Source: Candidatus Woesearchaeota archaeon (GTDB lineage Archaea > Nanobdellota > Nanobdellia > SCGC-AAA011-G17 > GW2011-AR17). From it: a stretch of 56,848 bases of DNA. The notes below the pieces were generated by a model, which saw nothing but the letters and a program-made list of their open reading frames with translations, was not told where the DNA came from and did no database searches. Position 1 is the stretch's first letter, and each line of letters starts with the position of its first letter. The position numbers were made by a program, and so were the translations under genes. Shown here piece after piece: positions 17,039 through 35,336 of this stretch. Location of the stretch: assembly GCA_964621125.1 (NCBI GenBank), contig CAZUKZ010000002.1, positions 1 to 56,848 of the forward strand. Reading direction: 5' to 3'.

Positions 17039-18487
17039 TTATTTATCAAACATACTCTTTGCCAGAGCTAATGCTCCTAACAGATATGTTTTAGTTCTAT
17101 CCCATGACCTTAAATACTTGAGTTGTCTTAAAACAAATTGTGGTCTAAAATAAAAATCTCGCATTGCTTTTTTCTGTAAAATTTTAAGCTCTTTGGAATC
17201 CCTTCCCTTAGGAGTATAAACTAATTCTTTATTTGCCCAACCCGCCCATGTTTGGTAATCCTCCCATTTGAATGATTTTAATGTACCATCTTTCTTTGCT
17301 ATGTCATATAACTTTGTGCCAGGGTAGGGAGTTGTTATTGTAACCTGTATCCAATCAGGATCAAGTTCTTTTGTGAAATCTATTGTTCCTTGAGTCTCTT
17401 CTTCTGTCTCTGTAGGTAATCCTATCATGAAAAATGCTTTAACTTCTATTCCTACAGTCTTAGTCCATTTTACTGCATTGCGAACTTCTGATAAAATTAT
17501 CCCTTTGCCAATTAAGTCAAGCAATCTCTGTGACCCAGACTCTACACCATAGTGTATACTCCAACAACCAGCTTTTTTCATAAGTTTGAGAAGCTTCAAG
17601 TCTACAAGATTGACCCTTGTCATACAAGTCCACCTTATTTTATTATGAATACCTTCATCTATAATCCTTTTGCATAGTTTCCTAACATGCCCTTTGTTTA
17701 TTGTAAAGGTATCATCTCTAAATATTATCTCTTTGGCATTATAATCATTAATCAAGATATTTATTTCTTTCATAATTCGACCAATAGAATGAAATCTATA
17801 TGTCTGTCCAAATACCTTGGAACAATATGAACATTGAAACGGGCAACCCCTTGAAGTAAGTACTATATGGCTTGGCAGTTGAAGATAATAAGTAGGTGCT
17901 GGCCTATACTTGTCCATGGGGAGCAAGTCTCTTGCAGGAAGAGGAATTTGGTCTAAATCCTTAATAAAGTGGCGTGGAGGATTAATTAAAATCTTATCGT
18001 TTAGCCTATAAATTAATCCTAAAATATTTCCTAGACTTTTCTTATTATCTAAAGCATCAAGAAGTTCGACAAAGGTGTGTTCACCCTCTCCAACTACTGC
18101 ATAATCCACGTCCTGATTTTCCTCAAGTGTTTGTTTGGGAAATATGGTCACATGGGGACCACCGACAACAATTTGTGCTTTAGGAAGAGTTTTTCTAATT
18201 AAAGATATTGTTTCTTTTGCACGAAGGTACATAGGTGTGAGGATGGTAACCCCCACTACATCAGGTTTTTCTTTTATTAGATAATCCTTTACTTCGTTAA
18301 TACCATAATTTTCTACAGCCGCATCTAGAATGGTAATCTTATCATTTTTTCTTTTTTCTCTTATAGCAGCAGCGATATAAGCTGGGCCTAATGGTTCTGT
18401 GGTTGGCCCTACTTTACCTAAAGCTTTCCCATACCTTTCAGCTGTTGATAAACACGGGATAATAAAGGAAATTCTCATCTTGCTCAC
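17039..18487 (-). CDS. B12-binding-domain radical SAM protein (class B), intein-free paralog of 32477..35336
   Basis: N-terminal cobalamin-binding-like fold (VVGVTILTPMY...VVGGPHVT). Radical SAM motif SRGCPFQCSYCS. Also YGVESGSQRLL. Confidence 0.8.
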   Translation of the reverse strand: MSKMRISFIIPCLSTAERYGKALGKVGPTTEPLGPAYIAAAIREKRKNDKITILDAAVENYGINEVKDYLIKEKPDVVGVTILTPMYLRAKETISLIRKTLPKAQIVVGGPHVTIFPKQTLEENQDVDYAVVGEGEHTFVELLDALDNKKSLGNILGLIYRLNDKILINPPRHFIKDLDQIPLPARDLLPMDKYRPAPTYYLQLPSHIVLTSRGCPFQCSYCSKVFGQTYRFHSIGRIMKEINILINDYNAKEIIFRDDTFTINKGHVRKLCKRIIDEGIHNKIRWTCMTRVNLVDLKLLKLMKKAGCWSIHYGVESGSQRLLDLIGKGIILSEVRNAVKWTKTVGIEVKAFFMIGLPTETEEETQGTIDFTKELDPDWIQVTITTPYPGTKLYDIAKKDGTLKSFKWEDYQTWAGWANKELVYTPKGRDSKELKILQKKAMRDFYFRPQFVLRQLKYLRSWDRTKTYLLGALALAKSMFDK

Positions 18488-25358: not shown

Positions 25359-25904
25359 ATGAAAAGAGCAGTATGGAAAAATAAATCAAATGGGCAACTC
25401 TGCGTTACAATCCCTCAAAATTCTGGATTTAAAGAAGGAGACATAGCAGATATAAGAAAAGAAAAAATAAGCAAAATAGTTTATACAAGTGTAGCAGCGG
25501 ATTTATTTCATTATGGACAACTTAGGCTACTTAAAGAAGCAAATAATTTAGGTGATTTTCATATCTGTGGAGTATTGACTGATAGGGCTCTAAAGGCGTA
25601 TAAGGGTAAACCTATATCTGGATTTAGAGACAGAATAGCAATAATCTCGTCACTAAGAAATATAGATATGGTTATGTCTCAAAATGATTTGAATCCAACA
25701 GATAATATAAGAAAAATCCGTGAACAATTCAATGATGTTGATATATGTGTTGTCTATGGTTCAAATTGGAAGAAAGTGCCTGGCGAAGAATACCTTAAAA
25801 AGACTGGTTGTGAAATCATACACTTACCATTCTATGAAAAACTTTCCAGAAAGAATATAATCAAAAAAATAATCCAAATAAATAAAAAGGAGAATGAAAA
25901 ATGA
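25359..25904 (+). CDS. AbrB/SpoVT-like N-terminal module fused to cytidylyltransferase-like domain with degenerate HxGH (HYGQ)
   Basis: [26 protein letters not shown] resembles a swapped-hairpin motif. It is followed by [21 protein letters not shown]. Confidence 0.5.
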
Positions 25905-27199
25905 AAAAGGTTTATGTAGGAATGTCTGCTGATTTATTACATCATGGTCATATAAATATAATTGATGTTGCAAGGAAAAAAGGGGAAATTACGGTTGGAT
26001 TATTGACTGATGGAGCCATTGCAAGCTTTAAAAGGGTTCCCCTTATACCTTTTGAACAAAGAAAAAAAATCATGGAAAATATAAGGGGCGTGGTGAGAGT
26101 TATACCTCAGGAAACTCTGGACTATGTTCCAAATTTGAGACTTTTAAAACCAGATTATGTTGTGCATGGGGATGATTGGAAAACTGGCGTTCAAAAACAA
26201 ACAAGAGCTAATGTTATTGAAGCTCTTAATGAATGGGGTGGACAATTAATAGAACCAGAGTATACTGCAGGCATATCATCAACAAATCTAATTAAAAATA
26301 TTATGGAAATAGGCACCACCCCAGATATTAGACGAAATAAATTAAAAAGACTAATTCAACTTAAACCATTAGTTAGAATTTTAGAAGTACATAATGGTAT
26401 AACTGGAAGGATAGTTGAAAAAACAAAGGTTGAGAAAAATGGTTCTGTCTGTGAATTTGATGGGATGTGGTCTAGTAGCTTAACAGACTCTACTTCCAAA
26501 GGGAAACCAGATACTGGCGCTGTTGATATCACTTCAAGATTACAGAGTATTGAACAAATATTAGATATAACAACAAAACCCATGATTGTTGATGCAGATA
26601 ATGGTGGTTTGGCTGAACATTTTATTTTTACTGTTAAGACACTAGAGCGTTATGGAGTTTCTGCAGTTATTATAGAAGACAAGACTGGAATAAAAAGGAA
26701 TTCACTTTTTGGAACTGATGTAGAACAAACACAAGATAACATAGAAAACTTTTGTAATAAGATAAGAAAAGGCAAACGTGCACAAGTTACAAAAGATTTC
26801 ATGATAATAGCAAGAATTGAAAGTTTAATATTAAAAAAAGGCATGGATTCTGCATTAGAAAGAGCAAAAAAATATATAGAGTCCGGAGCTGATGGAATAA
26901 TGATCCATAGCAAAGAGAAAGATGGTAGAGAGATACTGGGATTCTGTGAAGAATATAAAAAACTCCAGAACAAGGTCCCCTTAGTACTCGTACCCAGTAC
27001 ATACTCGCATCTTACTGAAGAAGAATTAGTGAATGCTGGAGCAAATATTGTAATATATGCCAACCATTTGTTAAGGAGTGCTTATCCCCCCATGGTCAAA
27101 ACAGCTAAAACAATTTTAAAACATGGTAGGTGCCATGAAGCAAACGAGTATTGTATGCCAATAAAGGAGATTCTAACCCTAATTCCAGGTGGTAATTGA
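25901..27199 (+). CDS. pepM: bifunctional cytidylyltransferase / phosphoenolpyruvate mutase (Fom1-like architecture)
   Basis: N-terminal [18 protein letters not shown] (HxGH). C-terminal [18 protein letters not shown], and the PEP-mutase signature [10 protein letters not shown] (EDKx5NS, 26675-26704). Confidence 0.82.
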
Positions 27200-28320
27200 T
27201 GAACTGTAAAGAACTCTGGCGTTTATTTGACAATGAAGGTATAAATTTTTTTACAGGTGTACCAGATAGTACTTTCAAGCATTGGATAGACTTCTTAGCA
27301 GCCAATCATAATAAAGGTTTAACTAATATTACTGCATGTAATGAATGTGAAGCTGTAGCAATAGCTTCTGGTTATCATATGGGTTCAAGTAAATTTGGTG
27401 TTGTGTACACGCAGAATTCAGGTTTAGGAAAAACTATCAATCCTATCACTTCTTTAGTCGATCCTGAGGTTTATTCCATACCCTTACTCTTGATGATTGG
27501 CTGGCGAGGGGAACCAGGCATAAAGGATGAACCTCAACATAAAAAAATGGGAAGAATCATGCTACCTCTGCTAGATGTATTAGAAATCCCCTATGCAGAA
27601 CTGCCCGATAACCTAAATGGGGCCTCTAAAATTATAATGAAGGCTAAGAAATACATCTTGGAAAAAAATGCCCCTTATGCAATAATTGTCAAAAAAGGAG
27701 TATTAGAAAAATATACAGAAAAAATAATTACTCAAACAAACTCCAAACTGACAAGGGAAGAAACCATAAACCTTATTATGGACAATATTGACAAGTCTGA
27801 TGCAATTATATCCACTACTGGAAAAACGTCCAGAGAACTGTTTGAACTAAGGATATCCAAATTAGAGAGTCCAAGAGATTTTTATACTGTAGGTAGTATG
27901 GGTTGTTCTGCTTCAATTGCATTAGGATTAGCTTTACAAAAACCATCTAAAGAATTTTTTATACTTGATGGAGATGGAGCAGTTATAATGCAAATGGGCA
28001 CGCTTGCAACAATAGGACACTACAAACCAAAAAACCTTCATCATATAATCATCGACAATGGTAGTTATGAATCTACAGGAGGTCAACCCACCGTTTCAAA
28101 CAGCCTTAACTTTGCAGCAATAGCCATGGCCTGTGGATATAAATCATCCAAAGAAGTAACTTCCAAATCCCAACTACTTGAAACTATAAAAGAAATAAAG
28201 AACTTGGAAGGCCCAAATCTGCTTCTTGTGAAAGTAAAAAAGGGGACAAAAAAAAATCTTAGAAGGCCAACAAAATCACCAATTGAAAACAAAGAAGAGT
28301 TTATGAAATTTATAGGATAA
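27199..28320 (+). CDS. ppd: phosphonopyruvate decarboxylase (ThDP-dependent)
   Basis: GVPDSTFK at the N-terminus. ThDP motif GDGAVIMQMGTLATIG...NGSYESTG. Its start overlaps the pepM stop (TGATG). Confidence 0.8.
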   Translation: MNCKELWRLFDNEGINFFTGVPDSTFKHWIDFLAANHNKGLTNITACNECEAVAIASGYHMGSSKFGVVYTQNSGLGKTINPITSLVDPEVYSIPLLLMIGWRGEPGIKDEPQHKKMGRIMLPLLDVLEIPYAELPDNLNGASKIIMKAKKYILEKNAPYAIIVKKGVLEKYTEKIITQTNSKLTREETINLIMDNIDKSDAIISTTGKTSRELFELRISKLESPRDFYTVGSMGCSASIALGLALQKPSKEFFILDGDGAVIMQMGTLATIGHYKPKNLHHIIIDNGSYESTGGQPTVSNSLNFAAIAMACGYKSSKEVTSKSQLLETIKEIKNLEGPNLLLVKVKKGTKKNLRRPTKSPIENKEEFMKFIG

Positions 28321-28323
28321 AAA

Positions 28324-29457
28324 ATGTCACAAAAAGAATATTATGGATTAGGATCTATTATACATATAGAGGATATCTTAAAAATTGAAAAACCACAGAA
28401 AATATTTCTAGTTTCAGGAAAAAGTTCCTATCGAGCTTCAGGAGCAAAAAAAGCCCTTGAAGATTTATCTCAAAATAAGGAAGTAACAGTATTCACAGAT
28501 TTTTCACCCAACCCTAAATTAAAGGATGTTATCAAAGGATTAAAACTATTTGGAGAAGAACAAGACATAGTAATTGCAGTAGGAGGAGGTAGCGTCATTG
28601 ATATGGCCAAGTTAATCAATATCTTTGCTGCACAAAAGCATAAACCCATCACCTACATAAGAAAGGAGGGAAAACTTGAAAATAAAGGCAAACCCCTAGT
28701 AGCAATTCCCACAACTGCAGGTTCCGGAACTGAAGCCACCCACTTTGCTGTGGTCTATGCTAATAGAGTAAAACATTCAATAGCACACGATTCTATTTTG
28801 CCTGCCTATGTTATACTTGATTCCACATTAACTTTGAGCATGCCTGCCAGTATCACTGCAAGCACAGGAATAGATGCCTTGAGTCAAGCGATTGAGGCTT
28901 ATTGGTCAGTAAATTCAATAGATGAATCAAGAGCTTTATCAGAAAAAGCCATAAAACTTATACTAGAAAATCTAAAAAGCTCTGTTTACAACCCTACACT
29001 TGAATCAAGAAAAGCAATGACAGAAGCAGCTAACTTTGCTGGGAAAGCCATCAATATCGCCAAGACTACTGCAGCACATGCCCTATCCTATATTTTTACA
29101 TCAAAATTCGGAATTCCCCATGGGCATGCCGTTGGCTTAACATTGGGTTTAGTACTAGAATATAATGCAGGAATTACAGACAAAGATTGTAATGATAAAA
29201 GAGGAATGGCTCATGTCAATAAAGTTCTTGATCAACTATGTTTATTACTAAATTGTACAGGATATATTGAAGCAAAGAATCAACTCAATAAACTTATGAG
29301 TGATATAGGCTTAGAAATGGATGTAAAACAACTAGGAGTTAAAAAAAGAGATATTGAGGAAATAATAAATAATGTAAATTGTGAGAGATTAAGCAATAAT
29401 CCAAGAGTAATTACAAAAAAAGGATTATCATACTTACTAAATGGACTTATAAAATAA
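28324..29457 (+). CDS. iron-containing alcohol dehydrogenase, likely phosphonoacetaldehyde reductase (FomC/PhpC-like)
   Basis: VGGGSVIDMAK, PTTAGSGTE and HALSY...GIPHGHAVG metal-ligand motifs. Lies directly downstream of ppd. Confidence 0.65.
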   Translation: MSQKEYYGLGSIIHIEDILKIEKPQKIFLVSGKSSYRASGAKKALEDLSQNKEVTVFTDFSPNPKLKDVIKGLKLFGEEQDIVIAVGGGSVIDMAKLINIFAAQKHKPITYIRKEGKLENKGKPLVAIPTTAGSGTEATHFAVVYANRVKHSIAHDSILPAYVILDSTLTLSMPASITASTGIDALSQAIEAYWSVNSIDESRALSEKAIKLILENLKSSVYNPTLESRKAMTEAANFAGKAINIAKTTAAHALSYIFTSKFGIPHGHAVGLTLGLVLEYNAGITDKDCNDKRGMAHVNKVLDQLCLLLNCTGYIEAKNQLNKLMSDIGLEMDVKQLGVKKRDIEEIINNVNCERLSNNPRVITKKGLSYLLNGLIK

Positions 29458-29476: not shown

Positions 29477-30137
29477 TTATTGATATTTTTCCCTATAAAA
29501 ATTAGTCAACTTCTCAAACATGCTATTCCCTTCATCATCAAATTTTTCAGCCACCTTAATTTGAGGCCATAAATCTTTTGGTAATTTTGTATACAACACA
29601 AAAGTTCTTTGTAGCCCTAATATCTCTTTTTTTGAGGGCATATTTAATATAATATCCATCCTATAATCCCCTATTTCATAGTCTTTTGATATATCCTTTC
29701 TGAATACATAAATTATAAAATTTAGTGCCCTTATAAGGGGTAAAAATATGTACCATTGACCTAATTTTACCTAATTTTCTATTAAGTTTTCTATTAAGTC
29801 CTATTGTTTCAAAGATGTGTTCTCTTGTTTCATCTGGAATTCCTATAATGTTATTAGCACATACTCTTAGGTTTGTTTTATTAAGTATTTCAAAAGCATT
29901 TATAATCAGCTTATTACTCATGGGCCTGTTCAATAATTTTCTCATTTCAGGGGAACCACTCTCTACACCAACACTTATAGATTGGGCTCCAGCCCCTTCT
30001 ACCAATTTAATCTTTTCTTCAGTTATTGTCTCAGGCCTTGTTTGACACCAAAAAGGCAACCCTATTTCTTCTTTCCATAATCTACTAAATTCCTTAAGTC
30101 TTTCTACTGAAGATGCCAGATAGATTACTAAAAGAGT
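29477..30137 (-). pseudogene. radical SAM (class B-like) gene remnant: lacks the N-terminal and CxxxCxxC region and has an internal frame break
   Basis: The readable part is VERLKEFSRLWKEEIGLPFWCQTRPE..ISVGVESGSPEMRKLL..IIGIPDETRE..FTPYKGTKFY. An in-frame stop lies upstream at 30138-30140. The C-terminal tail (29477-29659) is in a different frame from 29676-30059. Confidence 0.6.
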
Positions 30138-30613
30138 TCAATGAGATGAAAGATATGCTTATCAAAGCTATAACAAAAAAATTCTCCAGACCATTTATGA
30201 TAGAGTATGGTATATGGGGACAATCAATACATCATGCCCATATCCATTTCATTCCCTCAAAAGGAGAAGGTTATGAGATAAAGAATATCATAGAAGATAT
30301 GGTGAAATTACAAAAAATAAAAGTACACAAAACCACTTGGAAAAGATTAAAAACAATATACAATGAAGAAAAAGCATATGTAAGCATCAAGGATGGAGAT
30401 ATGTACGTCTGTCATGTAAACAAGTTACCAAAAAACTATAATCCAGTAAACCTCATATTAAGAAAATTCTTCAGTGAAGTGATAGGCCTAAAAGGGGTCA
30501 AAAATTGGAAAGAACTTACAAATGAAGAAAAAGCGCTGGATGAAGAAAAGAGGAATAAAACAAAGGAAGCATTGACAAAGGAATTATTTAATAAAGTTTC
30601 CAATAGTATTTAA
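30113..30613 (+). CDS. HIT-motif protein, atypical and possibly 5'-truncated
   Basis: Histidine triad HHAHIHFIP sits at residues about 41-49 rather than about 95-105. In-frame stop upstream at 30095-30097. Long C-terminal extension of unknown function. Confidence 0.4.
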   Translation: MPDRLLKEFNEMKDMLIKAITKKFSRPFMIEYGIWGQSIHHAHIHFIPSKGEGYEIKNIIEDMVKLQKIKVHKTTWKRLKTIYNEEKAYVSIKDGDMYVCHVNKLPKNYNPVNLILRKFFSEVIGLKGVKNWKELTNEEKALDEEKRNKTKEALTKELFNKVSNSI

Positions 30614-32476: not shown

Positions 32477-34705
32477 ATGAAAATAATCCTCATATCTACA
32501 TCAACTTATCCCTCAGATCAAGGTTTAAGGACCATCTCATCTTGCCTTAAAAAAGAAGAGCATAATATTAAAATGGTGTTTATGCCTATGGAAGAAAATT
32601 ATTCTCTAAAATATCCGCTAAAGGCGTTAATACAATTAAAACAGATTTGCAAAGGTGGTGACCTAATAGGAATTTCAGCTTATGCCTCTACATCTCCACG
32701 AGCAATACAAATTATCGATTATCTTAAATCTATGGAAATACCTTTTGTGTGGGGAGGACCGCATGCTACAATCTCTCCGAATAAATGTATACAACATGTA
32801 AATATAATCTGTAGGGGAGAGGGAGAAGAAGCTATTGTTGAACTTGCCACCAAGTTAGATAAAAAGAAAGACTACTCTAATATACAAAACCTGTGGATAA
32901 AAAAGGAAGGTAAAATAATCAAAAATGATGTGAGGTGCCTACAACCCACTTTAGACCATCTTCCTCCACCAGATTATGACTTACAAGACCATTACATTTT
33001 AGAAAACGAACAGCTTGTCCATTTTAAGGAAAGGCATCTGAATGGGTACATATTTTTCATGACCTCTAGAGGTTGCCCAAACGCTTGTACCTATTGTTTT
33101 CCTGCCGGAAATTTAGTGGAGAGTGAAAATGGAATGATTCCTATTGAAGATATAAAATTAAATGAAAAGGTATTATGTGCTGATGGGAAGTGGCATAAAG
33201 TTAACAATTTATATAAAAGGAAATATTCCGGCAGGTTAGTCAAATTATTAGTTACCAAATTAGGAGAAGGCATAACTTGTACATCTGATCATAAAATATT
33301 AACTTATAGAAACAAAAAAACTTGTTATATTAAAGCTGAAGAGATAAAGAAGAGTGATAAACTTTGTGTACCTCTACCTCCAGAAGAGAAGGAAGAAATT
33401 GACTTGTATAAGTTCCTATATGATGTTAGGTTTAAGGTAAAACTAAAACGACTCGTTAACCTTAGAGCGTTAAAAGAATGTATTAAACTGCATAAGGACG
33501 GTCTAAGCACAAGAAAAATATCTACAAAAACAGGAGTCAGCAAAAGTTATGTTCATTATATAATTAAGGCATCCAATAATAAAGAAAGATGGGTTAGTCT
33601 AGAAAAGAAAGAGGTCAAATGTAAGATACATAAAAAAGGGGATCTAGTAAGATTTACATTTGGAAGGAATCCAGTAAAAAGGAAAATTAAGCTTAATGGT
33701 CATCTCTGCAGACTTTTTGGATATTATTTAGCAGAAGGAAGTCTTTTAAAAGATAAATCAAGACCAAACAGTTTTGAAATTAATTTTAGCTTTGGCAAAA
33801 CAGAAAAAGCATACATAGATGATACCATAAGTATAATTAATAAAGAATTTAGAATTGAACCTAGCCTTGTTAAAGATAAAACTGCAACAAGGGTTGTTAT
33901 AAGTAATAGCATAATAGGACATTTATTTGAAAGATTATTTGATAAAGGCTCAAGAAATAAGAGAATTCATCCAATAATTCTAAATCTTGCACAAAAAGAG
34001 CTTAAGCAATTACTCTGTGGCTACATAAGAGGTGATGGAGACAAAAACCTAATTTGTAGTACTGTTTCAAAATCTCTGGCTTATCAGATACAGTTAATTG
34101 GTTTTAAATGTGGATATAGTCCAGGAGTTTATAGGTGTAAAGGGGGGAGGGTTAGCATAATCGATGGTAGAATCCTCAAATGTAATGGATATTATGCTAT
34201 GAGTTTTAAAAATACTCAAAAAGAAAATGAATTAAAGAAAATTGTTTACGGGATTAAGCAAAATAAAAAACAAGTTGCAGAAAAGTATATTAAACATAAG
34301 AATTTCATTCTTCTCCCAGTAAAAGAGATAAAAACATTCGCTTCAAATAAAGAAGTGTTCAATATAGAAGTCTCTTCACAGCATAATTATACAATAAATA
34401 ATATTGTGGTGAAAAACTGTTCCAACCACCTCTACCGCCAACTTCATAGCGGTAAAGGAAAACTAATAAGAAGTTATAGTCCAGATTATACTATCAAGGA
34501 ATTAAAAAGATTGAAAAACAAATTTCCATCCATAGGTGTCTTTGATATACGAGATGAAACCTTCCTAGCTAGGCCTCTTGAAGATATAAAGAAGTTTGCT
34601 GCAAAATATAAGAAAGAAGTAGGCATAAGGTTCAAGTGTCTTGTTGATCCTCCGACCACAAATAAAGATAAATTGAAATTACTGGTAGATGCCCGGGTTA
34701 TCTGA
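32477..34705 (+). CDS. B12-binding-domain radical SAM protein, N-terminal part, carrying an intein; frame breaks near 34696
   Basis: Cobalamin-binding-like N-terminal domain (LIGISAYASTSP...VWGGPHATISP). SRGCPNACTY|C, where the third Cys position is split by the intein. Extein resumes with CSNHLYRQLHSG. Confidence 0.8.
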   Translation: MKIILISTSTYPSDQGLRTISSCLKKEEHNIKMVFMPMEENYSLKYPLKALIQLKQICKGGDLIGISAYASTSPRAIQIIDYLKSMEIPFVWGGPHATISPNKCIQHVNIICRGEGEEAIVELATKLDKKKDYSNIQNLWIKKEGKIIKNDVRCLQPTLDHLPPPDYDLQDHYILENEQLVHFKERHLNGYIFFMTSRGCPNACTYCFPAGNLVESENGMIPIEDIKLNEKVLCADGKWHKVNNLYKRKYSGRLVKLLVTKLGEGITCTSDHKILTYRNKKTCYIKAEEIKKSDKLCVPLPPEEKEEIDLYKFLYDVRFKVKLKRLVNLRALKECIKLHKDGLSTRKISTKTGVSKSYVHYIIKASNNKERWVSLEKKEVKCKIHKKGDLVRFTFGRNPVKRKIKLNGHLCRLFGYYLAEGSLLKDKSRPNSFEINFSFGKTEKAYIDDTISIINKEFRIEPSLVKDKTATRVVISNSIIGHLFERLFDKGSRNKRIHPIILNLAQKELKQLLCGYIRGDGDKNLICSTVSKSLAYQIQLIGFKCGYSPGVYRCKGGRVSIIDGRILKCNGYYAMSFKNTQKENELKKIVYGIKQNKKQVAEKYIKHKNFILLPVKEIKTFASNKEVFNIEVSSQHNYTINNIVVKNCSNHLYRQLHSGKGKLIRSYSPDYTIKELKRLKNKFPSIGVFDIRDETFLARPLEDIKKFAAKYKKEVGIRFKCLVDPPTTNKDKLKLLVDARVI
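33095..34417 (+). mobile_element. 441-aa intein with LAGLIDADG homing endonuclease and HTH insert
   Basis: Cys1 in CFPAGNLVESENGMIPIEDI (block A). ITCTSDH (TxxH, block B). LAGLIDADG motifs LFGYYLAEGS and LLCGYIRGDGD. C-terminal VFNIEVSSQHNYTINNIVVKN followed by +1 Cys at 34418. Confidence 0.85.
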
Positions 34706-35336
34706 TATTATAATGGGCATACAATCAGGAAGTGATAAAGTAAATCTAAAAGTATATAAAAGATACATAAAAAGCTGCCAAGTCTTAAAGGCTGCTAAAA
34801 TCATAAACAAATTCAAGTCAAAGCTTGCTGTAATGTATGATATGATTACCACCAATCCTTATGAAGAAATGGAAGACGTCCTAGAAAGTATAAACATCAT
34901 GATGGAGATTCCCAAGCCCTATTATCTTTCTGTCAACAATTTAGTGTTCTTTTTAGGTACCCCATTATATGACCAAGCAATTAAAGATGGAATAATAAGA
35001 AGCAGAAAGGACTCAGCATTCGATCTGAATTATTGGGACAGATGGAAACACATCAAGTTGAAAAAGAAGAATGCCTATCTCAATCTGATCTTAAACTTAA
35101 TGAGGGGTCCCTGTACAAATAAAAGGTATGGTTTACTTCCTGCCCCAGTACTTAATTTTTTAGTTCAAGAAAAAATAATAAGATTTAATGTCAAATATAA
35201 AACCCCTACTTACATTGTAGGCAACATAGTGCAAGTCATAGACTTTTTTAGAGAAAATGTTGCTAAACCCATATATCGTAAGGCTATGCCCACTTCTTTT
35301 AAAATTTGGTATGATAAAATAAGGTATAGAGTCTGA
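34689..35336 (+). CDS. C-terminal part of the same radical SAM gene, in the +1 frame
   Basis: GLSDIIMGIQSGSDKVNL continues KLKLLVDA from the upstream frame. Compare the paralog's KLLKLMKKAGCWSIHYGVESGSQRLL. Confidence 0.7.
   Translation: MPGLSDIIMGIQSGSDKVNLKVYKRYIKSCQVLKAAKIINKFKSKLAVMYDMITTNPYEEMEDVLESINIMMEIPKPYYLSVNNLVFFLGTPLYDQAIKDGIIRSRKDSAFDLNYWDRWKHIKLKKKNAYLNLILNLMRGPCTNKRYGLLPAPVLNFLVQEKIIRFNVKYKTPTYIVGNIVQVIDFFRENVAKPIYRKAMPTSFKIWYDKIRYRV

What the first reader, a model, noticed from the sequence alone, without database searches (positions are those of the whole stretch)
33095..34417. LAGLIDADG intein inserted inside the radical SAM CxxxCxxC motif, with the +1 splice nucleophile doubling as the third Fe-S ligand
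Seen in the sequence: the host reads SRGCPNACTY, then CFPAGNLVESENG...(441 aa)...NNIVVKN, then CSNHLYRQ. Removing the insert restores CPNACTYC, matching the intein-free paralog's CPFQCSYC at 17039..18487. The insert has Cys1, a TxxH block (TSDH), two LAGLIDADG motifs with acidic residues retained (LFGYYLAEGS, LLCGYIRGDGD) and a terminal Asn. The penultimate residue is Lys instead of the usual His. An HTH-like segment (GLSTRKISTKTGVSKSYVHYII, about 33466-33575) sits between the splicing and endonuclease parts.

Established knowledge: inteins target highly conserved active-site motifs, and the +1 Cys/Ser/Thr is required for splicing.

Inference: the [4Fe-4S] site cannot form until splicing occurs, and the ligand Cys is itself the splice nucleophile. 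This gives a possible redox- or metal-sensitive conditional switch. Inteins in radical SAM cluster motifs are, as far as I know, rarely documented.
Basis: partly seen in the sequence, partly recalled or inferred. Interest (0 to 1): 0.62.

Follow-up and report, generated by a model that had tools for sequence, protein, structure and literature searches.

The report
Intein inside radical-SAM iron-sulfur motif
A mobile, self-excising protein element (an intein with its own DNA-cutting enzyme) really does sit just before the third iron-binding cysteine of a radical SAM enzyme in a tiny DPANN archaeon, but inteins use this same site in many radical SAM genes, and here the host gene also carries a frame-breaking extra base.

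Summary
Positions 33095-34417 encode a 441-aa class-1 intein: Cys1, TSDH, two LAGLIDADG motifs with their acidic residues, a three-helix HTH insert and a terminal Asn. It lies between Tyr206 and Cys648 of a B12-binding radical SAM protein. About 30 orthologs from the same archaeal order read RGCPxxCxY-CSN with no insert, so excision restores CxxxCxxC.

It is not rare. Related inteins occupy the same site in at least 30 radical SAM proteins of six subfamilies. At least 22 of the 150 nearest cluster representatives share the junction. NCBIfam has two "intein-containing radical SAM" models. The published Pyrococcus abyssi MoaA intein, with its Cys-3/Cys1 redox trap, has the same geometry. The penultimate Lys is normal for this clade, where only 3 of 30 members have His.

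One extra C at 34692-34694 (GCC CGG G) shifts the frame 93 residues after the splice site. All three assemblies I could read carry it; about 30 orthologs do not. It is not genome-wide recoding. So the enzyme may be dead or split here, which weakens the "switch" idea for this locus.

Verdict: a new member of a known kind, of low to moderate interest.

The parts
32477..33094 (+). N-extein of the host radical SAM gene: B12-binding domain plus the first two cluster cysteines (C200, C204; CPNACTY = 33074-33094)
   Evidence: Pfam B12-binding E 2.9e-12, 46.9 bits against a cut-off of 32.1, residues 2-123. G199, C200, P201, C204 and Y206 are invariant in 13 homologs.
33095..34417 (+). 441-aa class-1 intein with a LAGLIDADG homing endonuclease (Cys1 ... 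Asn441)
   Evidence: Pfam Intein_splicing 63.2 bits, ending at residue 647. AlphaFold2 model pLDDT 91.4, pTM 0.87. Top Foldseek hits are PI-PkoII 2cw7 (E 5.6e-21), the TliVMA and PhoVMA inteins, PI-SceI, PI-PfuI and I-DmoI. phmmer against PI-PkoII gives E 2.9e-10. The insert is absent from about 30 orthologs.
33281..33292 (+). Intein block B, TxxH (TSDH; T63, H66)
   Evidence: Both residues are invariant in 30 related radical SAM inteins.
33461..33577 (+). Three-helix HTH-like insert between the Hint N-lobe and the endonuclease (intein residues 123-161; GLSTRKISTKTGVSKSYVHYII)
   Evidence: Pfam HTH_23 E 2.7e-4, 21.1 bits, below the 24.6 cut-off. The model has helices at 123-134, 139-146 and 150-161. 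The motif G.S.R.IA...G.SKS.VH is in the clade consensus.
33713..33742 (+). LAGLIDADG motif 1 (LFGYYLAEGS, catalytic E214)
   Evidence: L207, G209, Y210, E214 and G215 are invariant in 30 inteins.
34010..34042 (+). LAGLIDADG motif 2 (LLCGYIRGDGD, catalytic D314)
   Evidence: G313 and D314 are invariant in 30 inteins.
34349..34417 (+). Intein blocks F and G (VFNIEVSSQHNYTINNIVVKN), with penultimate Lys and terminal Asn441
   Evidence: V421, N423, Y432 and N441 are invariant and H430 is nearly invariant. The penultimate residue varies in the clade: K, N, S, A, Y, Q, with H in only 3 of 30.
34418..34420 (+). +1 Cys (C648): the splice nucleophile and the third Cys of CxxxCxxC
   Evidence: Invariant in all 13 homologs, with or without the intein. 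Cys at +1 in all 30 related radical SAM inteins.
34418..34705 (+). C-extein, first piece, in frame with the intein; ends at a TGA created by the frame shift
   Evidence: the genome search reports '1 TGA' inside the match for this genome only.
34691..34697 (+). Frame break GCC CGG G: one extra C in the run at 34692-34694, at the invariant Gly740 of LLVDAG
   Evidence: The intein-bearing ortholog L094 reads GAT GCC GGG CTG, whereas the window reads GAT GCC C GGG TTA. The sequence is identical in the ENA and JGI contigs. Reading one 4-base step here restores LLVDAGLSDIIMGIQSGS and a 952-aa product.
34689..35336 (+). C-extein, second piece, in the +1 frame (215-aa ORF with its own ATG, overlapping the upstream stop by 17 nt)
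   Evidence: It aligns end to end with the C-terminal third of all orthologs. Overall C-extein identity to P0005 is 74.7%. With the intein removed and the frame corrected, Pfam Radical_SAM rises from 26.1 to 68.5 bits and covers positions 3-165 of 166.

Best explanation
Positions 33095-34417 are a genuine mobile class-1 intein carrying a double-motif LAGLIDADG homing endonuclease and an HTH accessory domain. It sits in a cobalamin-dependent (class B) radical SAM gene of a Woesearchaeota/Pacearchaeota-like DPANN archaeon.

**Where it sits and how it splices**
- The intein lies immediately before the third Cys of the CxxxCxxC [4Fe-4S] motif.
- After translation, Cys1 makes the thioester. Cys+1, which is the future third ligand, attacks it. 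Asn441 cyclises and the exteins are ligated to give ...CPNACTYCSN....
- The cluster-binding loop therefore exists only after splicing. These chemical steps are inferred from conserved residues, not shown.

**How it spreads**
- The released endonuclease is expected to cut intein-free alleles at this conserved codon string and so spread the element by homing.
- That expectation explains two observations. The distribution is sporadic: 1 of about 30 orthologs in the order carries it. The same insertion point recurs across non-orthologous radical SAM families.
- The element belongs to a large clade specialised on this site. It is a selfish element in a conserved active-site motif, not a regulator peculiar to this genome.

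**State of the host gene**
- The host gene has one extra C at 34692-34694, 93 residues downstream of the splice junction.
- Most likely this is a real and recent mutation. The enzyme would then be truncated or made in two pieces, while the intein itself remains intact.
For: - **Intein identity.** Pfam Intein_splicing is above its cut-off and ends at the predicted C-terminal Asn. All 20 columns that are invariant in 30 related inteins are kept. The fold model is confident and matches solved intein endonucleases.
- **Exact site.** Thirteen sequences align with the gap at Y206|C648. About 30 order-level orthologs join at query 207|648 in one open frame. The 60-nt empty site rebuilt from the two flanks translates to SRGCPNACTYCSNHLYRQLH, against TRGCPNACAYCSNHLYRQLY in the intein-free allele L093.
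- **Mobility.** The closest host relative, P0005 (72% extein identity), has no intein. Intein identity to P0003 and P0011 is the same (42%), although their exteins are 63% and 31% identical to the window's. Only 2 of the 80 best species-representative loci carry a related intein.
- **Site-specific clade.** All 30 related radical SAM inteins have the junction CxxxCxx|C...N|C (CxxxxCxx in the six 'CSW' members) across six host subfamilies. Intein clades follow host subfamily. At least 22 of the 150 nearest cluster representatives have the same N-junction.
- **Frame break.**
Against: - No experiment was done. Splicing and endonuclease activity are inferred from conserved residues and a predicted fold.
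- Pfam LAGLIDADG_3 did not reach E 0.01 on this copy, although relatives carry it.
- The penultimate His is absent and block F lacks the usual acidic residues (SSQH against DDDH/EEDH in relatives), so splicing could be slow.
- The frame break could still be a consensus error.
Confidence: 0.88

Rival explanations
1. Adaptive conditional switch. On this view the intein is kept because splicing is gated by redox state or iron-sulfur availability. Possible gates are a Cys204(-3)/Cys207(1) disulfide, or metal binding to the pseudo-motif CPNACTY-C1 that the precursor displays. The oxygen-labile enzyme would then mature only under reducing conditions.
For: - The geometry is that of the P. abyssi MoaA intein, where a native Cys-3/Cys1 disulfide blocks splicing until reduction (PMC3922620, PMC10663303).
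- Cys-3, Cys-7, Cys1 and Cys+1 are nearly or fully invariant in all 30 clade members.
- The precursor reconstitutes CxxxCxxC with the intein's own Cys1.
Against: - The cysteines are conserved because they are host ligands and splice nucleophiles, so their presence does not show regulation.
- About 29 of 30 orthologs in the order work without the intein.
- The distribution and the decoupled intein and extein histories look like homing, not a retained regulator.
- In this genome the host gene is frame-broken.
Confidence: 0.15
2. The frame break is an assembly or sequencing artefact. On this view the host gene is intact and encodes a 952-aa precursor.
For: - The indel lies in a CCCGGG run.
- The 212 codons downstream are fully open and 75% identical to an ortholog.
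- The three contigs are 100% identical over their whole overlap, so they may derive from one sample or one read set.
Against: - The same extra C appears in contigs of different lengths from three assemblies: the genome's own, ENA ERZ23499057 and JGI 3300009374.
- No unbroken 952-aa version of this protein exists among 5.8 billion clustered proteins.
- A 3-base homopolymer is not a typical short-read error site (my own knowledge).
Confidence: 0.15
3. The frame break is read through by a programmed +1 frameshift or a four-base decoding event at GCC-CGG-G. The model is a rare 'hungry' CGG codon in the A site with GGG available in the +1 frame, as at the Ty3 GCG-AGU-U site. The full enzyme would then still be made.
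For: - Reading CGGG as one step gives the invariant Gly740 and a continuous 952-aa product.
- CGG is rare: 1.6 per 1000 codons, against 16-18 for AGA and AGG.
- No tRNA-Arg(CCG) was found, whereas tRNA-Gly(CCC) is present.
- A stop follows three codons later.
Against: - Between 232 and 516 ordinary in-frame CGG codons sit inside long open frames. Only 3 frameshift-like CGG sites exist, which is the same rate as for control codons.
- No tRNA with an 8-nt anticodon loop was found.
- There is no stable downstream RNA structure (z = +0.47).
- None of about 30 orthologs has such a site.
- This is a single instance, with no conservation.
Confidence: 0.05
4. The insert is a degenerate, non-splicing Hint/LAGLIDADG remnant that stays in the protein.
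For: The penultimate His is missing and block F is less acidic than in relatives. The host gene already shows decay.
Against: - All invariant catalytic positions are kept: C1, T63, H66, N441, C+1, E214 and D314.
- There are no internal stops in 441 codons.
- A 441-aa insert between two ligands of one cluster would be incompatible with function.
Confidence: 0.03

Closest known systems
Pyrococcus abyssi MoaA intein (Callahan et al. 2011 NSMB, as summarised in PMC3922620 and PMC10663303)
   Same: It is an intein in a radical SAM enzyme with an N-extein Cys at -3 and catalytic Cys1, the pair that forms the published disulfide 'redox trap'. A Cys at -3 fits only an insertion directly before the third Cys of CxxxCxxC. 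That is my inference from the motif geometry; I could not obtain the MoaA sequence here.
   Different: The host family differs: MoaA GTP 3',8-cyclase against a B12-binding class B radical SAM enzyme. The organism differs: Thermococcales against DPANN. Redox control has been shown for MoaA and is untested here.
NCBIfam NF045703 'tetraether lipid synthase Tes, intein-containing' and NF038136 'rSAM_Rv_intein' (intein-containing Rv2578c family radical SAM protein)
   Same: These are curated models of radical SAM proteins that carry an intein. The window's intein matches NF045703 over model positions 213-596 (E 2.7e-12). In relatives the match starts at the CxxxCxxC motif and runs colinearly into the intein (P0017 from residue 93, P0049 from residue 79), so the Tes intein very probably lies at the same site.
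   Different: The scores are far below the family cut-offs (45 bits against 1700; NF038136 gives no match at this locus). The host is neither Tes nor an Rv2578c-family protein.
Archaeal LAGLIDADG intein endonucleases with solved structures: PI-PkoII (2cw7), the TliVMA and PhoVMA inteins (7qss, 7qst, 7qsu), PI-PfuI (1dq3), PI-SceI (1vde)
   Same: They share the two-lobe architecture: a Hint splicing domain interrupted by a double-LAGLIDADG endonuclease plus an extra DNA-binding module. Foldseek E-values run from 5.6e-21 to 2e-10.
   Different: Sequence identity is only 11-16%. The hosts differ (DNA polymerase, V-ATPase, RNR). The extra module here is a small three-helix HTH.
Intein-bearing radical SAM genes already noted elsewhere in this scan (AmmeMemoRadiSam, PflX-like, QueE, phage rSAM)
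   Same: They have the same insertion point before the third Cys. My own searches found the AmmeMemoRadiSam (CQNW) hosts in the same intein clade.
   Different: Those notes are unchecked AI notes on other genomes. This copy is in a B12-binding host next to glycosyltransferase genes, and it is the only one I know of in which the host gene is also frame-broken.

Membership tests
Class 1 intein (Hint fold, blocks A, B, F, G) | Nucleophilic Cys or Ser at position 1 | tested here: met
   Cys207 of the ORF is intein Cys1. It is invariant in 30 relatives.
Class 1 intein (Hint fold, blocks A, B, F, G) | Block B TxxH | tested here: met
   TSDH is present. T63 and H66 are invariant.
Class 1 intein (Hint fold, blocks A, B, F, G) | C-terminal Asn followed by Cys, Ser or Thr at +1 | tested here: met
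   ...VVKN|C. N441 is invariant and +1 is Cys in all 30 relatives.
Class 1 intein (Hint fold, blocks A, B, F, G) | Penultimate His (block G) | tested here: not met
   The residue is Lys here. Only 3 of 30 clade members have His. Splicing without this His is documented for other inteins (my own knowledge: Chen, Benner and Perler 2000), so this feature is common but not defining.
Class 1 intein (Hint fold, blocks A, B, F, G) | Profile match above the curated threshold | tested here: met
   PF14890 scores 63.2 bits against a cut-off of 35.8. TIGR01445 intein_Nterm scores 21.7-23.1 bits, just below its 24.5 cut-off.
Class 1 intein (Hint fold, blocks A, B, F, G) | Precise excision restores a continuous, conserved host sequence | tested here: met
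   Pfam Radical_SAM rises to 68.5 bits after in-silico excision and frame correction.
Class 1 intein (Hint fold, blocks A, B, F, G) | Protein splicing observed | not testable with these tools
   This needs expression of the precursor.
LAGLIDADG homing endonuclease (single-chain, two motifs) | Two LAGLIDADG helices, each with a catalytic acidic residue | tested here: met
   The motifs are LFGYYLAEGS (E214) and LLCGYIRGDGD (D314), both invariant in the clade.
LAGLIDADG homing endonuclease (single-chain, two motifs) | Alpha-beta-beta-alpha-beta-beta-alpha fold of I-DmoI or PI-PkoII type | tested here: met
   Foldseek gives I-DmoI TM 0.62-0.71 on the target and PI-PkoII E 5.6e-21. phmmer against the 2cw7 endonuclease region gives E 2.9e-10.
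LAGLIDADG homing endonuclease (single-chain, two motifs) | Pfam LAGLIDADG_3 (PF14528) match | tested here: not met
   No match at E <= 0.01 for this copy. Most relatives carry the precomputed PF14528 hit.
LAGLIDADG homing endonuclease (single-chain, two motifs) | Cleavage of the intein-free allele | not testable with these tools
   The candidate target is the 60-nt empty site of L093.
Cobalamin-dependent (class B) radical SAM enzyme (host) | N-terminal B12-binding domain | tested here: met
   PF02310 scores 46.9 bits against a cut-off of 32.1.
Cobalamin-dependent (class B) radical SAM enzyme (host) | CxxxCxxC and a full radical SAM core in one polypeptide | tested here: not met
   As encoded, Radical_SAM scores 26.1 bits, below the 29.5 cut-off. 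The core is complete only after intein removal and correction of the frame break at 34691-34697.
Redox-trapped conditional intein (P. abyssi MoaA type) | Cys at -3 and Cys at 1 | tested here: met
   C204 and C207.
Redox-trapped conditional intein (P. abyssi MoaA type) | Disulfide that blocks splicing until reduction | not testable with these tools
   This needs biochemistry.
NCBIfam NF045703 Tes, intein-containing | Whole-protein score above 1700 bits | tested here: not met
   45.3 bits, from the intein part only.

The most novel reading that the evidence does not exclude
Inteins before the third Cys of CxxxCxxC form one lineage that has specialised on this motif across the radical SAM superfamily. 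Its precursors, which display a pseudo CxxxCxxC built with the intein's own Cys1, could couple splicing to thiol redox state or to iron-sulfur loading. That would make maturation of oxygen-labile enzymes conditional. In this genome a second layer is possible: the GCC-CGG-G frame break might be bypassed by +1 frameshifting or by restart at the overlapping ATG, so the enzyme would need both a translational and a post-translational repair.
Probability: 0.1. Interest if true: 0.6.

Novelty: new member of a known kind. Interest (0 to 1): 0.25.

Why it matters
This is a clean, base-exact example of a homing intein in the most conserved motif of the radical SAM superfamily. It adds a B12-binding host from DPANN archaea to a site-specific intein clade that is widespread in metagenomes. 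I found almost no description of that clade in the searchable literature: 25 papers mention both terms and none treats the topic.

For annotation, such genes are easily miscalled. Here the encoded product falls below the Pfam radical SAM cut-off until the intein is removed and the frame is corrected.

For biochemistry, the clade offers many natural test cases for the redox-trap idea shown for MoaA. This particular locus does not change what is known, and its host gene is probably damaged.

Tried and rejected
1. **Genome-wide quadruplet or CGG recoding.** Rejected. Between 232 and 516 ordinary in-frame CGG codons exist. Frameshift-like CGG sites number 3, no more frequent than for CGA, CGC, CGT or CCC. 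No unusual tRNA was found.
2. **Frameshift-stimulating RNA structure downstream of the break.** None found (z = +0.47).
4. **Literature on inteins in the radical SAM motif.** 'intein' plus 'radical SAM' returned 25 papers, none on the topic. 'intein' plus 'CxxxCxxC' and 'intein' plus 'tetraether lipid synthase' returned nothing. The primary MoaA paper and the Belfort 2017 review are not held, so the MoaA insertion point is inferred from the published Cys-3/Cys1 statement, not read from sequence.
5. **Fom3-like role.** The window has a Fom1/Fom2/FomC-like phosphonate core 3 kb upstream, so I asked whether the host is a Fom3-like methyltransferase for it. Orthologs in L093 and L094 lie among glycosyltransferase genes without PEP mutase. 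The closest solved structure is TokK at only E 3.6e-8. Left open, not claimed.
6. **The 127-153 aa radical SAM piece at 29676-30137 (-) as a missing part of the host.** Rejected. It is only 29-33% identical to the host and to the paralog, so it is a separate truncated paralog.
Full report
**Observation**

The plus-strand ORF 32477..34705 (742 aa) reads ...FFMTSRGCPNACTY CFPAGNLVESENG ... NYTINNIVVKN CSNHLYRQ.... The paralog at 17039..18487 reads SRGCPFQCSYC without an insert.

Pfam finds Intein_splicing at E 3.3e-17, 63.2 bits against a cut-off of 35.8. The match ends at residue 647, the last model position. Pfam also finds a B12-binding domain at residues 2-123 and only a sub-threshold Radical_SAM match (26.1 bits against 29.5).

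**Exact insertion point**

A search of 5.8 billion clustered proteins returned intein-free homologs of 524-579 aa and intein-bearing relatives of 913-951 aa. The closest intein-free homolog, P0005, has 72% extein identity. In the 13-sequence alignment the gap in the intein-free proteins runs exactly from after Y206 to before C648. G199, C200, P201, C204, Y206, C648 and N650 are invariant.

I then searched 121 genomes of the same order. About 30 carry the ortholog as one open frame of 514-538 aa, and the two halves of the match join at query 207|648. None has a stop inside.

The two flanks of the window joined in silico translate to SRGCPNACTYCSNHLYRQLH. The uninterrupted allele L093 reads TRGCPNACAYCSNHLYRQLY, and 43 of 60 nt are identical. 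Excision therefore restores CxxxCxxC, and the +1 Cys is the third ligand.

**Is it a live-looking intein?**

I aligned 30 related radical SAM inteins. The invariant columns are:
- C1, T63 and H66 (TxxH);
- L207, G209, Y210, E214 and G215 (LAGLIDADG 1);
- G313 and D314 (LAGLIDADG 2);
- V421, N423, Y432 and N441.

H430 and the +1 Cys are nearly invariant. The window copy keeps all of these.

AlphaFold2 on this alignment gives pLDDT 91.4 and pTM 0.87. The model has a Hint beta-core from both ends, a three-helix bundle at residues 123-161 and an alpha/beta endonuclease core. Foldseek against the PDB puts PI-PkoII first (E 5.6e-21). The TliVMA and PhoVMA inteins, PI-SceI, PI-PfuI and I-DmoI follow. 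phmmer finds PI-PkoII at E 2.9e-10.

The HTH-like segment is real as a fold and is conserved in the clade consensus. Its Pfam HTH_23 match is below threshold.

The penultimate Lys is not an oddity. In the 30 relatives this position is N, S, K, A, Y or Q, and His in only 3.

**How common is the site?**

I searched with the intein alone. The best hits are nearly all radical SAM proteins. In every one of the 30 I examined, the junction is CxxxCxx|C...N|C (CxxxxCxx in the six 'CSW' members), meaning the intein sits directly before the third Cys. The hosts fall into six subfamilies, distinguished by their C-extein starts:

| C-extein start | Host type |
|---|---|
| CSN | this ortholog group |
| CFN | B12-binding radical SAM |
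| CNVP | B12-binding radical SAM |
| CNIP | B12-binding radical SAM |
| CSW | B12-binding radical SAM |
| CQNW | AmmeMemoRadiSam system enzymes |

A SPASM/MoaA-like protein (P0053) also carries one.

An exhaustive HMMER search of 1.84 billion cluster representatives gave 1606 hits at E <= 1e-10. Among the best 150, at least 22 have the N-junction CxxxCxx|C.

NCBIfam holds two curated models named for intein-containing radical SAM proteins: NF045703 (Tes) and NF038136 (rSAM_Rv_intein). In relatives, the NF045703 match begins at the CxxxCxxC motif and runs straight into the intein.

Reviews state that the P. abyssi MoaA intein has a native Cys-3/Cys1 disulfide that blocks splicing until reduction (PMC3922620, PMC10663303). 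MoaA is a radical SAM enzyme. A Cys at -3 fits only an insertion before the third Cys. This last step is my inference, because the primary paper was not available.

Earlier notes of this scan list 42 similar findings in at least 40 genomes. I treat them as leads, and my own searches agree with them.

**Mobility**

- The window intein is 42% identical to those of P0003 and P0011. Their exteins, however, are 63% and 31% identical to the window's.
- In an intein tree, clades follow host subfamily, with 6 changes, the minimum possible. The window copy falls in a 97/93-supported group that mixes the CSN and CFN hosts.
- Of the 80 best loci in species-representative genomes, only two carry a related intein, both Aenigmatarchaeota-like. 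All ten close orthologs, from Woesearchaeota, Pacearchaeota and Nanoarchaeia MAGs, are empty.
- The genome is 1.13 Mb, 36% GC and 89% complete. It is intein-rich, with about 12 inteins in 11 genes.

This is the pattern of a homing element.

The host ORF ends at 34705 (...LLVDARVI*) and resumes in the +1 frame at 34689 (MPGLSDIIMGIQSGS...). All relatives read LLV[DE]AG[LC][TS]DI, and the Gly is invariant. The intein-bearing ortholog L094 has GAT GCC GGG CTG, whereas the window has GAT GCC C GGG TTA. That is one extra C.

The same sequence is present in an ENA contig (14.2 kb) and a JGI contig (7.3 kb), both 100% identical to the window. No unbroken version of the protein exists in the protein collection.

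Reading CGGG as one step repairs the frame, so I tested recoding:
- CGG is rare but ordinary, with 232-516 in-frame uses.
- Frameshift-like CGG sites number 3, no more frequent than for control codons.
- No tRNA has an enlarged anticodon loop.
- No RNA structure follows the site.
- None of about 30 orthologs has such a site.

I conclude that this is a single-locus +1 insertion, probably real and recent.

Only after removing the intein and correcting the frame does the protein give a full Radical_SAM match: 68.5 bits over positions 3-165 of 166.

A 5'-truncated radical SAM paralog fragment lies 2.5 kb upstream at 29676-30137, on the minus strand. Radical SAM genes are therefore decaying in this neighbourhood.

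**Mechanism**

What is shown by sequence and model:
- the element has every residue needed for class-1 splicing and for LAGLIDADG catalysis;
- it interrupts the cluster loop.

What is inferred:
- Cys1 undergoes the N-S shift;
- Cys648 carries out the trans-thioesterification;
- Asn441 cyclises;
- the mature loop CPNACTYC then binds the [4Fe-4S] cluster;
- the free endonuclease, helped by its HTH, cuts empty alleles.

A redox or metal gate is possible by analogy with MoaA but untested. It is not needed to explain the data. In this genome the truncated 742-aa product still contains the whole intein and 93 residues of C-extein. The selfish element can therefore still splice and be released even if the enzyme is dead.

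**Context**

The host gene lies between a GT-C (PMT_2-like) gene and a GT4 glycosyltransferase gene. The GT4 neighbour is conserved next to the intein-free ortholog L093, inside a surface-glycan cluster. The host is most likely a cobalamin-dependent methyltransferase acting on a glycan or its precursor. This is an inference. The closest solved relative is TokK, and only weakly.

**Verdict**

This is a new member of a known kind. Its distinguishing feature is the frame-broken host gene, which argues against a regulatory role at this locus.

Noticed in passing
window 34691-34697: A +1 frame break (GCC CGG G, one extra C) splits the host radical SAM gene into ORFs 32477..34705 and 34689..35336. 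It is present in three assemblies and absent from about 30 orthologs. The downstream piece has its own ATG, overlapping the upstream stop by 17 nt. Real mutation, split gene, error and read-through are not yet distinguished.
   Followed up: yes
window 29676-30137 (-): This is a 5'-truncated radical SAM fragment covering Pfam positions 82-163 only, with no B12 domain and no CxxxCxxC. It is 29-33% identical to the host and to the paralog. Its missing 5' part is replaced by a HIT-like gene (HHAHIHFIP) at 30098..30613. It is probably a pseudogene remnant.
   Followed up: partly
window 25901-29457: A phosphonate core made of a cytidylyltransferase-PEP mutase fusion, a TPP-dependent phosphonopyruvate decarboxylase-like gene and an Fe-alcohol dehydrogenase (Fom1/Fom2/FomC-like), lying 3 kb upstream of the B12 radical SAM gene. 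Whether the intein-bearing enzyme acts on this phosphonate (a Fom3-like methylation) is open. Orthologs elsewhere are not next to PEP mutase.
   Followed up: partly
genome G000: C4, C17, C10, C23, C15, C5, C3 (loci L001-L010): The 1.13-Mb genome is intein-rich. Inteins interrupt SMC (P-loop), a FlaI/VirB11-like ATPase (two or three), aRF1 (a mini-intein), anaerobic RNR NrdD (two), RFC, UDP-glucose dehydrogenase, a GyrB/TopoVI-B-like protein, Top6A, RtcB and the beta subunit of a 2-oxoacid:ferredoxin oxidoreductase.
   Followed up: partly
L094 10398-13694: The contig carrying the intein-bearing ortholog P0003 also encodes a 1098-aa carbamoyltransferase interrupted by an intein (Carbam_trans_N - Intein_splicing - Carbam_trans_N).
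   Followed up: no
genome G000, whole: ARAGORN without intron search finds only 22 tRNAs. There is no tRNA-Arg(CCG), so CGG would be read by tRNA-Arg(UCG). Many tRNAs are probably intron-containing, split or on missing contigs.
   Followed up: no
window 33095-34417 against its flanks: The intein is more AT-rich (29.9% GC) than the N-extein (35.6%), the C-extein (33.6%) and the whole window (35.8%). This fits a separate history.
   Followed up: no
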